DNA of 64,000 nt from a virus. How positions within the stretch are numbered: the first letter of the stretch is position 1; each line of letters begins with the position of its first letter. Shown here piece after piece: positions 46,836-48,484 of this stretch. The notes beneath the pieces are model-generated. The model did no database searches and was not told the origin of the DNA. It saw nothing but the letters and a program-made list of their open reading frames with translations. The stretch covers positions 97,407 through 161,406 of the IMG/VR virus record IMGVR_UViG_3300020421_001669; one strand, given 5' to 3'. The position numbers and the translations under genes were made by a program.

Positions 46836-47029
46836 GTTATACCTATCTGAAAGAAATCACCGATTGGGGTGAACAGAAAGTTAAGAACCACACCTATATC
46901 TTCAATGAGAAGAATCAGAATGTTGGTTATATCATATCGGGAACCAAGGAAGAACTTTTCTACAATAAACCTTCCAAGTTGTTTAGTAAGGCGCGTAGAA
47001 AGTTCGTGGAGGTAAAACAATGGGCATGA
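46832..47029 (+). CDS. Hypothetical protein
   Basis: LKEITDW...NHTY...FSKARRKF. Confidence 0.7.
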   Translation: MSYTYLKEITDWGEQKVKNHTYIFNEKNQNVGYIISGTKEELFYNKPSKLFSKARRKFVEVKQWA

Positions 47030-47349
47030 TGAACATGGGCGGTAGCCTTCGATACGATATGTCTGGGCGTAAGCGTAGAGCATATAAGAAGAATAATCCT
47101 ACGCGAAAAACCAAGATACAGGATTCTGGAAAACCTTTGCGTGTAGATAGTTCTCGTCTTGAAGAGATGAATGAACACAGGCGAAAGTATCCATCACTTA
47201 ATTCCTTTGGGCAGACTTCAGGCACTAAGGACGATAAGTGGATACGCGAGAAGCAAGAAATCTCGCAAGGTTATACTGTTGCACCCGCTTACAATAAAGG
47301 GGCGTATCAAGTAATTGGGAAGAGTAATATCAAAGATATTGGTAAATAA
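47020..47349 (+). CDS. Basic hypothetical protein
   Basis: YTVAPAYNKGAYQVI motif. Confidence 0.75.
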   Translation: MGMMNMGGSLRYDMSGRKRRAYKKNNPTRKTKIQDSGKPLRVDSSRLEEMNEHRRKYPSLNSFGQTSGTKDDKWIREKQEISQGYTVAPAYNKGAYQVIGKSNIKDIGK

Positions 47350-47354
47350 CTTCT

Positions 47355-47431
47355 CTCCCAATAGCTCAACTGGATAGAGCAACGGCCTTCTAAGCCGTAG
47401 GTTGTAGGTTCGAGTCCTACTTGGGAGGCCA
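47355..47431 (+). tRNA. tRNA-Arg (UCU)
   Basis: Canonical cloverleaf, anticodon loop CTTCTAA, GTTCGAGTC T-loop, encoded CCA. Confidence 0.97.
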
Positions 47432-47459
47432 AACAAAGGAAAAAAAATTAAAAAAACGC

Positions 47460-47509
47460 TTGACATTTGCAAAAAAGATCAGTATAATGTTTACTAAGTT
47501 GTATAAATA
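47460..47509 (+). promoter_or_regulatory. Tandem sigma70 and late promoters
   Basis: TTGACA 47460-47465, 17 nt (GATC in spacer), TATAAT 47483-47488; TATAAATA 47502-47509. Confidence 0.85.
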
Positions 47510-47514
47510 AGCAT

Positions 47515-47583
47515 GCGGTGGACTGAATAGTACGATTCATTTCCAGTGAATTAGGTAAGGTGAAACTCCTTGACGCCGCTCCA
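47515..47583 (+). tRNA. Non-canonical tRNA-Gly (UCC)-like RNA, 69 nt
   Basis: GCGGTG...CGCCGC-T-CCA acceptor; ATTCA-TTTCCAG-TGAAT anticodon arm; reduced D arm; T-loop TGAAACT. Confidence 0.7.
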
Positions 47584-47585
47584 AA

Positions 47586-47830
47586 TTAACAGTTGTAGTC
47601 CTAGGCAAAGACTCCATCCTGTCACACTTTAAACTGCCTCGACTGAATGACGGTACTATGAGTACGATGCAGAGTAGGTCGTTAAACACATAAGGAGCCC
47701 TGAGCAGTGGCGCATGGTAACACACAGACCGAAAAAGGCTCAGTCCATCAGACTATGAGGGCAGTGATGGCCTCGATTAACATAGATGGACAAAGAGAGC
47801 TGGGCATCTCTCTTCATCCTAAACTGCCCA
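47586..47830 (+). ncRNA. Putative ncRNA: ~100-nt-period array of three H-type pseudoknots
   Basis: Loops CTAGGCA, CTGAGCA and CTGGGCA pair with downstream AAACTGCCT, AAAAGGCTC and AAACTGCCC (covarying); ends in CCA. Confidence 0.65.
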
Positions 47831-47852
47831 CTACTTAGAAGGACAACAAGAA

Positions 47853-48014
47853 ATGAAGTACTTGAGTATATTAGTTGTTTGTATTATGATTAGTGCATGT
47901 AGCGGAAGAATAAATTTAATCGCTGAATTACCAAAAGACCAAGACCTAGATGTAAGAATTAAAACATCCAAGTCTGGTGGTGTGCATAAATCTAATACAC
48001 CAACAGCAGAATGA
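47853..48014 (+). CDS. Small lipoprotein (not in ORF track)
   Basis: MKYLSILVVCIMISA-C lipobox; AGGA SD. Confidence 0.6.
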   Translation: MKYLSILVVCIMISACSGRINLIAELPKDQDLDVRIKTSKSGGVHKSNTPTAE

Positions 48015-48127
48015 AAAGACGATAAGATTTGTCTTTCATACGCACCGAACTTTTGTTACGATGCGAATAAATGAATTGTGGGTGATTAACTTTTTGTTAA
48101 TCTTAATTGAAAAAAACGGAGTATAGT

Positions 48128-48418
48128 ATGAAAAAGAAAACTTCACAAGCAACAAAGGTTATTTCAGCCTTGGAGAAGGCAGACCAAGGTCTGACTGCTA
48201 ACGAAATGAAAAATAGGTTTGGCGTAACTAATGCGAGAGCATTGGTGACACACCTTCGTCAGAATGGTTTCGCCATTTATTTGAACAAAACACCTAAGTA
48301 CACTGACAGAAATGGCAATGTAAGAAAGGGTGTTTCACGATACCGTTTAGGTACACCATCTAGGGCAATTATTGCCGCTGGATACAAAGCTTTAGCAGCC
48401 TCAAGAGGTCTTGCTTAA
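48128..48418 (+). CDS. Winged-helix DNA-binding protein
   Basis: GLTANEMKNRFGV.NARALV..LR.NGFAIY. Confidence 0.7.
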   Translation: MKKKTSQATKVISALEKADQGLTANEMKNRFGVTNARALVTHLRQNGFAIYLNKTPKYTDRNGNVRKGVSRYRLGTPSRAIIAAGYKALAASRGLA

Positions 48419-48456
48419 GTTTTAACATTCGTTAGTTAATTATTCACAATGGAATA

Positions 48457-48484
48457 AAGGGCGTCTTAGGATGCCCTTTTTTTT
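48457..48484. terminator. Intrinsic terminator between convergent genes
   Basis: AAAGGGCGTC-ttag-GATGCCCTTT followed by a T run. Confidence 0.85.

What the first reader, a model, noticed from the sequence alone, without database searches (positions are those of the whole stretch)
47586..47830. Orphan array of covarying RNA pseudoknots behind a tRNA-like leader: candidate antitoxin-mimic / anti-defence RNA
Seen: this ORF-free 245-nt stretch holds three hairpins whose loops start almost exactly 100 nt apart (47601, 47700, 47800). The loops are CTAGGCA, CTGAGCA and CTGGGCA. Each is followed by an A-rich linker and a complementary segment: AAACTGCCT, AAAAGGCTC(AG) and AAACTGCCC(A). The pairing covaries between copies (AGGC/GCCT, GAGC/GCTC, GGGC/GCCC) while the stem-1 sequences differ, which is the signature of a conserved H-type pseudoknot. 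Each unit is preceded by TTAA(A)CA, both spacers carry ACTATGAG, and the array ends in CCA. It lies downstream of a perfect sigma70 promoter, a late promoter and a tRNA-like element that could release it. Established: type III antitoxins (ToxI, CptI, TenpI) are tandem arrays of H-type pseudoknots, and phage-encoded ToxI mimics can neutralise ToxIN. Inference: no toxin is adjacent (the next ORF is a lipoprotein), so this may be a decoy RNA against host type III TA/Abi RNases, or a new phage ncRNA class.
Basis: partly seen in the sequence, partly recalled or inferred. Interest (0 to 1): 0.85.

Follow-up and report, generated by a model that had tools for sequence, protein, structure and literature searches.

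The report
Pseudoknot RNA behind tRNA-like gene
A small group of uncultured marine T4-like phages carries a conserved, roughly 320-base non-coding RNA gene, made of a tRNA-Gly look-alike followed by three knot-forming hairpins, that matches no described RNA family; nothing supports the idea that it mimics a toxin-antitoxin RNA.

Summary
The three loops CTAGGCA, CTGAGCA and CTGGGCA sit at 47601, 47700 and 47800. Each has a 5-6 nt complement downstream after an A-rich stretch (joint chance about 2e-5).

The region is a real conserved element. I found 21 further copies (4 IMG/VR contigs, 17 marine metagenome contigs), giving 13 distinct sequences. The knot units are 90-93% identical, against 80% for the next ORF.

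- **Unit 2:** compensatory changes support both of its stems.
- **Bridging helix and hairpin between units 2 and 3:** one compensatory change each.
- **Units 1 and 3:** their loop pairings never vary, so they are untested.

The RNA is part of a fixed cassette: perfect sigma70 promoter plus late promoter, tRNA-Gly(UCC)-like element, knot domain, 53-aa lipoprotein, winged-helix protein, terminator. The genes upstream of the cassette vary.

The antitoxin-mimic reading is not supported. There is no tandem repeat, no Rfam match and no toxin gene, and the units are barely alike.

My best reading is a new tRNA-linked structured phage RNA that is processed and stable and probably binds a protein. Its function is unknown. 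A cis-acting mRNA leader is a serious rival.

The parts
47460..47488 (+). Sigma70-type early promoter (TTGACA, 17 nt spacer, TATAAT)
   Evidence: 12 of 12 consensus match. The core from the -35 box to the -10 box is near-invariant in the relatives, and synteny with upstream genes breaks just upstream of it.
47502..47509 (+). T4-type late promoter TATAAATA
   Evidence: Read directly and conserved with constant spacing in all relatives. By the known T4 late-promoter geometry the start site would fall at 47515, the first base of the tRNA-like element (inference). The genome has 26 TATAAATA on + and 3 on -.
47515..47583 (+). tRNA-Gly(UCC)-like element with reduced D arm, odd T loop and encoded CCA
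   Evidence: Compensatory changes in the anticodon, T and mini-D stems. The covariance model R2 built from it hits T4 tRNA-Gly next best (23.7 bits, E 6.6e-4). ARAGORN and the Rfam tRNA model do not call it.
47584..47589 (+). Variable A/U-rich linker after CCA
   Evidence: Sequence and length vary among 13 relatives while both flanks are fixed. A candidate single-stranded processing site (inference).
47590..47645 (+). Unit A: closing helix 47590-95/47640-45, hairpin 47597-600/47610-13, loop pairing 47603-07/47635-39
   Evidence: 52 of 62 columns invariant (segment 47584-47645, 12 loci). The closing helix shows A-U to G-U in 2 sequences. The hairpin and the loop pairing never vary. The hairpin alone is weak (-1.3 kcal/mol).
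47646..47677 (+). Hypervariable insert (three unrelated versions, 0-19 nt length differences)
   Evidence: Mean identity 58%. It is replaced wholesale between lineages, and the mosaics indicate recombination.
47678..47743 (+). Unit B: stem 1 47695-99/47709-13 (with A.G mismatch), loop pairing 47700-05/47738-43, small hairpin 47715-18/47728-31 in the long A-rich loop
   Evidence: Stem 1 shows C-G to G-C in three sequence types. The loop pairing shows G-C to A-U (helix 8). This is the only unit with compensatory change in both stems.
47743..47791 (+). Bridging helix 47743-49/47785-91 enclosing hairpin 47757-60/47771-74
   Evidence: GUCCAUC/GAUGGAC becomes GUCUAUC/GAUAGAC in L158. The hairpin shows G-C to A-U (helix 11).
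47794..47830 (+). Unit C: stem 1 47794-99/47808-13, loop pairing 47801-06/47825-30, 11-nt loop ending AAAC
   Evidence: Textbook H-type geometry (6 + 6 bp, 1-nt and 11-nt crossing loops). Stem 1 shows A-U to G-U in 2 sequences. The loop pairing is invariant. Energies are -6.5 and -9.1 kcal/mol.
47853..48014 (+). 53-aa lipoprotein ORF (lipobox ISAC) with Shine-Dalgarno sequence at 47838-43
   Evidence: Follows the RNA in all 12 loci aligned through the ORF; no terminator lies between in the window. A homologue (77% identity) sits without the RNA behind a regA-like gene in L304. No Pfam or PHROG match.
48128..48418 (+). 96-aa winged helix-turn-helix protein
   Evidence: Pfam HTH_39 8.8e-8 and phrog_4973. 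It is part of the conserved cassette.
48456..48479 (+). First intrinsic terminator downstream of the promoter
   Evidence: 10-bp stem followed by a T run. It defines the end of the transcription unit.

Best explanation
This is a previously undescribed structured RNA gene of a narrow clade of uncultured marine T4-like myoviruses. It is transcribed early and late from its own two promoters.

The transcript starts with a degenerate tRNA-Gly(UCC)-like element. A roughly 250-nt domain follows, built from three hairpin-type pseudoknots (A, B, C), a bridging helix and one hypervariable insert.

Proposed mechanism:
1. Host tRNA-processing enzymes excise the tRNA-like head. RNase P cuts at its 5' side on early transcripts. 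Late transcripts would start exactly at its first base. An endonuclease cuts in the variable A/U linker after CCA.
2. This releases the knot domain, whose two ends are locked in structure (closing helix plus unit A at the 5' end, unit C at the 3' end). It therefore persists as a stable RNA, either free or still joined to the lipoprotein and winged-helix message.
3. The three look-alike knots (loop CURRGCA, A-rich crossing strand, G/C-rich second stem) act as repeated docking sites for one protein partner.

Shown: conservation, strand, promoters, part of the fold, the cassette structure and the absence from known families. Inferred: processing, stability, protein binding and any role in trans.
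For: - **Conservation above the coding neighbour.** Units A, B and C are 90-93% identical across 12 loci, against 80% for the lipoprotein ORF and 58% for the internal insert.
- **Structure on the + strand.** 96% of cells are paired. There are 19 double-sided changes, against 5.4 expected from shuffles and 0-4 for slid partners. G-U pairs and A-U to G-U changes work only in the + strand transcript.
- **Compensatory changes in the knot domain.** They occur in both stems of unit B, in the bridging helix and in its hairpin.
- **Paralogous compensation.** Across the three loop pairings, A-U replaces G-C at loop position 3 and G-C replaces A-U at position 4. The joint chance of the three complements is about 2e-5.
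- **Own strong promoters.** A perfect sigma70 promoter and a late promoter keep constant spacing to base 1 of the tRNA-like element.
- **The tRNA-like head is real.** Its stems covary, and model R2 recovers T4 tRNA-Gly.
- **The lipoprotein gene exists without the RNA in related phages.** There it is translationally coupled to a regA-like gene. More distant winged-helix homologues have a plain promoter and no RNA. The RNA is therefore an added unit, not an inherent leader of these genes.
- **No match to any known family or collection outside this clade.** No Rfam family matches. There is no copy elsewhere in the genome, and none in cultured phages at blastn sensitivity.
Against: - No terminator separates the RNA from the lipoprotein ORF. 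The ORF follows at a fixed short distance in all 12 loci aligned through it, which fits a cis-acting leader equally well.
- No expression or end-mapping data could be obtained. The sequencing-run tool failed twice.
- The loop pairings of units A and C are invariant, so homologues do not test them.
- With 13 sequences at 89% mean identity and few lineages, many unrelated column pairs also appear to covary. Statistical power is low.
- The nested fold energy is unremarkable.
- No protein partner is identified.
Confidence: 0.42

Rival explanations
1. Cis-acting 5' leader. The knot domain stays on the lipoprotein and winged-helix mRNA and controls its stability or translation. It could do this as a structured 5' end that blocks 5'-end-dependent decay after the tRNA-like head is removed, or as a binding platform for a translational repressor.
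For: The RNA is followed about 20 nt later by the Shine-Dalgarno sequence and ATG of the lipoprotein ORF in all 12 loci aligned through it, and the first terminator comes after the winged-helix gene. Pyrimidine-rich conserved single strands (CUCCAUCCU in unit A, CUCUUC in unit C) could pair with the ribosome-binding site.
Against: - The predicted anti-Shine-Dalgarno duplexes are weak, about -5 kcal/mol, and not clearly compensated.
- The Shine-Dalgarno sequence lies outside every conserved helix.
- There is no terminator/antiterminator pair.
- The leader is more conserved than the gene it would serve.
- The same gene works without it in related phages.
Confidence: 0.3
2. Anti-defence decoy. 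The knots mimic a type III antitoxin or another RNA substrate and soak up a host Abi/TA endoribonuclease.
For: The only support is architectural: several H-type pseudoknots in one RNA, expressed from the start of infection. Phage pseudo-ToxI escape is established knowledge.
Against: - No tandem repeats, and the units are barely similar.
- No ToxI or other Rfam match.
- No toxin gene in the phage.
- No related RNA in any prokaryotic genome scanned.
- Known mimics resemble the host antitoxin in sequence, and no such host sequence exists in the data.
Confidence: 0.07
3. Tandem ligand-sensing knots (riboswitch-like). Three small H-type aptamers with A-rich crossing strands, in the style of preQ1-I or SAM-II, sense a metabolite.
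For: The compact H-type geometry with an A-rich third loop is repeated three times upstream of an ORF.
Against: - No Rfam riboswitch match even at E up to 10.
- No expression platform: the Shine-Dalgarno sequence is not sequestered and there is no terminator.
- Loop lengths differ widely between units (11, 21 and 24 nt).
- The downstream genes have no metabolic link.
Confidence: 0.05
4. Decaying remnant of a phage tRNA cluster with no function of its own.
For: The head is a degenerate tRNA-Gly related to the T4 type. A tRNA-Arg lies upstream in the window and in L176. T4 has tRNA-Arg followed by two odd stable RNAs.
Against: The sequence is more conserved than the adjacent coding DNA. It shows compensatory changes. 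It is kept intact in 13 sequence variants despite frequent recombination around and inside it.
Confidence: 0.05

Closest known systems
Type III antitoxin RNAs (ToxI, CptI, TenpI)
   Same: Non-coding RNA containing several H-type pseudoknots; phage versions are known as escape mimics.
   Different: Those are head-to-tail arrays of near-identical 34-45 nt repeats, followed by a terminator and the toxin gene, and the toxin cuts them into monomers. Here there are no tandem repeats, the units are about 100 nt apart and dissimilar, and there is no toxin and no Rfam match.
Phage T4 stable RNAs, species 1 and 2 (rnaC, rnaD)
   Same: T4-type phage. These are stable non-coding RNAs of unknown function, encoded directly next to tRNA genes, with partial tRNA-like features. 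In T4 the order is tRNA-Arg, rnaD, rnaC. rnaC carries a T-arm-like hairpin and rnaD ends in CCA.
   Different: No sequence or model similarity: R1 gives no hit on the T4 region. The T4 RNAs are 119 and 139 nt and show no pseudoknot series. The tRNA-Arg neighbour here is present in only 2 of the relatives.
tmRNA
   Same: A tRNA-like domain combined with a string of A-rich H-type pseudoknots in an RNA of about 330 nt.
   Different: The tRNA-like part here is a closed cloverleaf with an anticodon arm, and it sits at the 5' end rather than being formed by both ends. It carries glycine-type rather than alanine-type acceptor features. There is no conserved tag reading frame, since indels break all frames. 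ARAGORN finds no tmRNA.
Large ornate phage-associated RNAs (GOLLD, ROOL) and functional tRNA 3' trailers (3'ETS-leuZ sponge)
   Same: Structured RNAs of unknown or sponge function that sit beside or behind tRNA genes and depend on tRNA processing (from established knowledge).
   Different: No Rfam match to GOLLD or ROOL. This RNA is much smaller than GOLLD or ROOL and far more structured than the leuZ trailer.
T4 gene 32 leader pseudoknot
   Same: An H-type pseudoknot in the 5' leader of a T4-type phage mRNA that serves as a protein docking site for translational control.
   Different: That is a single knot tied to an autoregulated single-stranded-DNA-binding protein gene. Here there are three knots plus a tRNA-like head upstream of a lipoprotein gene, with no sequence relation.

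Membership tests
Type III toxin-antitoxin antitoxin RNA | Tandem array of near-identical direct repeats (about 34-45 nt) | tested here: not met
   Tandem Repeats Finder gives 0 rows at minimum score 30. Unit-to-unit alignment: A/C z = 3.9, A/B 1.8, B/C 1.5.
Type III toxin-antitoxin antitoxin RNA | Cognate endoribonuclease toxin gene (ToxN, CptN or TenpN) immediately downstream, behind a terminator | tested here: not met
   The next genes are a 53-aa lipoprotein and a winged-helix protein. There is no PF13958 match anywhere in the 161-kb genome and no terminator before 48456. A free-standing mimic would not need this feature.
Type III toxin-antitoxin antitoxin RNA | Sequence and structure match to a curated model (Rfam ToxI) | tested here: not met
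   No match at gathering score or at E up to 10.
Type III toxin-antitoxin antitoxin RNA | Binds and inhibits the toxin as processed monomers | not testable with these tools
   Needs co-expression or binding assays.
H-type pseudoknot (structural class) | Hairpin loop pairs with a downstream strand; both stems supported by covariation | tested here: inconclusive
   Unit B: one compensatory change in each stem. Unit C: stem 1 shows a wobble-compatible change and stem 2 is invariant. Unit A: both stems invariant and stem 1 weak. Complementarity across the three units is compensated and improbable by chance.
tRNA (for the leader 47515-47583) | Cloverleaf with canonical D and T loops, detected by tRNA models | tested here: not met
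   ARAGORN and Rfam tRNA give no call, even with relaxed settings. The cloverleaf-like stems do covary, and model R2 hits T4 tRNA-Gly, so it is tRNA-derived but not canonical.
tmRNA | tRNA-like domain formed by both ends, tag reading frame, alanine-type acceptor | tested here: not met
   ARAGORN finds no tmRNA. The tRNA-like domain is contiguous at the 5' end, the third acceptor pair is G-C, and no frame is conserved.
Known riboswitch and marine or phage RNA motifs in Rfam 15 (preQ1, SAM-II/V, glnA, Downstream-peptide, manA, wcaG, IMES, GOLLD, ROOL) | Match to the family covariance model | tested here: not met
   The only hit in the 64-kb window is tRNA-Arg. Nothing appears in 47300-48150 at E up to 10 except chance-level rows outside the region.

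The most novel reading that the evidence does not exclude
The knot domain is a new class of phage trans-acting RNA. It would be delivered by the host's tRNA-processing machinery from a tRNA-Gly-like head, and its three pseudoknots would titrate a host RNA-binding protein or nuclease during infection. It would be an RNA sponge or anti-defence decoy unrelated to type III antitoxins.
Probability: 0.12. Interest if true: 0.8.

Novelty: new variant of a known kind. Interest (0 to 1): 0.5.

Why it matters
T4-type phages have carried unexplained stable RNAs next to their tRNA genes for fifty years (species 1 and 2). Larger phage RNAs beside tRNAs (GOLLD, ROOL) are also still without a function.

This locus adds a compact, well-delimited example with features that make it testable:
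- a tRNA-derived head with intact glycine-type features;
- a promoter pair that places the late start on base 1 of the head;
- three related pseudoknots.

It is abundant enough in ocean metagenomes to give natural sequence variants. It is a tractable candidate for structure probing and partner hunting. It also warns against reading any row of pseudoknots as a toxin-antitoxin mimic.

Tried and rejected
- **Rfam.** Gathering scan of the whole window and E up to 10 on 47300-48150 gave only tRNA-Arg.
- **Cultured phages.** blastn against 50,697 phage records gave only tRNA-Arg matches. Megablast of 16 kb found no close cultured relative.
- **Related phage loci.** nhmmer and covariance model R1 over about 590 kb of related loci, fetched through the flanking 109-aa and winged-helix proteins, found no further copies.
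- **Loose tRNA-like pattern in IMG/VR.** It returned 54 stretches, consistent with chance. Model R2 confirmed none of the 50 new stretches.
- **Unit pattern scans.** IMG/VR gave the same four contigs plus 3 chance hits. Prokaryotic genomes gave 66 single chance hits and no double hits.
- **tmRNA reading.** Rejected: no conserved frame, wrong topology, no ARAGORN call.
- **Alternative helix CCAUCA/UGAUGG.** Rejected in favour of GUCCAUC/GAUGGAC, which has the compensatory change in L158.
- **Long-range pairing GUCCU/AGGAC to the ribosome-binding site** (proposed by RNAalifold). It is not kept in L212 and L213, where the ribosome-binding site differs.
- **Anti-Shine-Dalgarno pairing of unit C.** Weak.
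- **Blind search for covarying column pairs.** It is swamped by lineage effects.
- **T4 rnaC and rnaD.** No similarity.
- **Sequencing-run search for expression evidence.** It failed twice.
- **Long ORF starting inside the -10 box in some relatives.** It is absent from the window and lies upstream of the transcription start, so it is not a gene.

Full report
**Setting**

The window is the right-hand 64 kb of a 161-kb IMG/VR virus record, estimated 91% complete. GC content is 37.6% and there are 26 TATAAATA motifs on the + strand. Its family B DNA polymerase is about 50% identical to gp43 of marine cyanomyoviruses. It is therefore an uncultured marine T4-type myovirus of unknown host. The only canonical tRNA in the whole genome is tRNA-Arg(UCU) at 47355-47431.

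**The observation**

Reading 47000-48300 confirms the three loops: CTAGGCA at 47601, CTGAGCA at 47700 and CTGGGCA at 47800. Their downstream complements are TGCCT, GCTCAG and TGCCCA, each preceded by AAAC or AAAAAG.

The differences between the loops are matched in the partners. Position 3 is A-U in unit A and G-C in units B and C. Position 4 is A-U in unit B and G-C in units A and C.

- The loop motif CTRRGCA occurs only 7 times on the + strand of the genome, and three of those are here.
- A motif-restricted scan for a hairpin plus downstream complement hits only this locus.
- Shuffling the downstream segments gives a joint probability near 2e-5. The test is post hoc.

Some details do not hold in relatives. 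The ACTATGAG repeat is not conserved, nor is the TTAACA before units 1 and 3. The trailing CCA is conserved but base-paired inside stem 2 of unit C. The hairpin of unit A is weak. The nested fold energy of the whole region is ordinary.

**Relatives**

Rfam gives nothing but tRNA-Arg, and cultured phages give nothing but tRNA matches.

- Searching through the flanking winged-helix protein found four IMG/VR contigs with the RNA at 81-87% identity.
- A degenerate pattern for the units found the same four in IMG/VR.
- The same pattern found 17 more copies in marine metagenome contigs, largely Tara Oceans.
- Together these give 13 distinct full-length sequences.
- None was found in 185,579 prokaryotic species genomes.
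- None was found in about 590 kb of more distant relatives of this phage.
- There is no second copy in the genome.

**Conservation and structure**

| Segment | Mean pairwise identity |
|---|---|
| tRNA-like head | 92% |
| Units A, B, C | 93%, 90%, 92% |
| Lipoprotein ORF | 80% |
| Winged-helix ORF | 88% |
| Insert 47646-47677 | 58% |

The insert exists in three unrelated versions and recombines freely.

On the 13-sequence alignment, my structure has 96% of cells paired and 19 double-sided changes. Shuffles give 5.4, and slid partners give 0-4.

Within the finding's coordinates the compensatory events are:
- stem 1 of unit B, C-G to G-C;
- the loop pairing of unit B, G-C to A-U;
- the bridging helix, GUCCAUC/GAUGGAC to GUCUAUC/GAUAGAC;
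- its inner hairpin, G-C to A-U.

The closing helix of unit A and stem 1 of unit C show only A-U to G-U changes. The loop pairings of units A and C never vary. The pseudoknot is therefore directly supported for unit B. It is geometrically textbook but untested for unit C, and weakest for unit A. G-U pairs place the structure on the + strand transcript. Power is low: a blind scan finds many spurious covarying pairs because there are few lineages.

**The head**

Positions 47515-47583 fold as a cloverleaf with a 3-bp D stem, a 7-nt loop UUUCCAR, a T stem with loop UGARACU, and UCCA at the end. The D, anticodon and T stems all show compensatory changes.

Standard tRNA finders reject it. A model built from it picks out T4 tRNA-Gly as the next best hit in about 744 kb (23.7 bits, E 6.6e-4). 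It is a derived tRNA-Gly.

The late promoter is spaced so that, by T4 rules, transcription would begin on its first base. That spacing is constant in all relatives. The linker after CCA is A/U-rich and variable.

**The cassette**

In every relative the order is the same: promoter pair, head, knot domain, lipoprotein ORF, conserved hairpin, winged-helix gene.

- The gene upstream of the promoter differs. It is the 108-110 aa protein in the window and several relatives (L082, L176, L213), and a 184, 323-330, 369-371 or 506 aa protein in others.
- tRNA-Arg is present only in the window and L176.
- The first + strand terminator is at 48456.
- A lipoprotein homologue (77% identity) sits without any RNA directly behind a regA-like gene in other contigs.
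- Distant winged-helix homologues have a simple promoter and no RNA.

**Interpretation**

The antitoxin-mimic idea fails every testable defining feature of type III systems. It has no positive evidence beyond the presence of pseudoknots.

The data fit a new tRNA-linked structured RNA. I favour a processed, stable, protein-binding RNA for three reasons:
- it is more constrained than the gene it precedes;
- that gene does without it elsewhere;
- it has tRNA-gene-like promoters and a head that invites tRNA processing.

The fixed position in front of the ORF and the missing terminator keep a cis-acting leader role well alive. Expression data, which I could not obtain, would separate the two readings.

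The nearest analogues are T4 species 1 and 2 RNAs, which lie directly after T4 tRNA-Arg. They share no sequence or model similarity with this RNA.

Noticed in passing
window 47502-47515: The late promoter TATAAATA is spaced 5 nt from G47515 in the window and in all relatives. By T4 late-promoter geometry, late transcripts would therefore start exactly at base 1 of the tRNA-like element and need no RNase P cut.
   Followed up: partly
window 48084-48102: A perfect inverted repeat, GATTAAC, 5 T, GTTAATC, lies just upstream of the winged-helix gene. It is a candidate operator for that protein. The whole intergenic stretch 48015-48128 is 86% conserved among relatives.
   Followed up: no
window 48015-48036: A hairpin right after the lipoprotein stop codon (AAAGAC / GTCTTT) changes to AAAGG / CCTTT in relatives. 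The following CATACGCACCGAA...TTTTG is conserved even in contigs that lack the RNA (L304).
   Followed up: no
L304:1085-1656: In related contigs the lipoprotein gene overlaps the stop codon of a 139-aa gene. By my reading of its sequence, that gene resembles T4 translational repressor RegA. No RNA element is present there.
   Followed up: partly
L176, L160, L212, L158 (alignment A4): The RNA variants are mosaics. For example, L176 has the window's type of tRNA-like head but the other type of variable insert. Synteny with upstream genes breaks at the promoter. Both fit promoter-mediated cassette shuffling as described for T4-type phages.
   Followed up: partly
L231:4909-5248 (phage T4): T4 has the order tRNA-Arg(UCU), rnaD, rnaC. 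This mirrors the window's order of tRNA-Arg(UCU), tRNA-like element and knot RNA, although the RNAs share no detectable similarity.
   Followed up: yes
window 47761 and 47770 (L213 variant): L213 carries a double change (G to U, G to C) at two positions of the bridging hairpin. These positions do not pair in my model, so this may be an unexplained tertiary contact.
   Followed up: no
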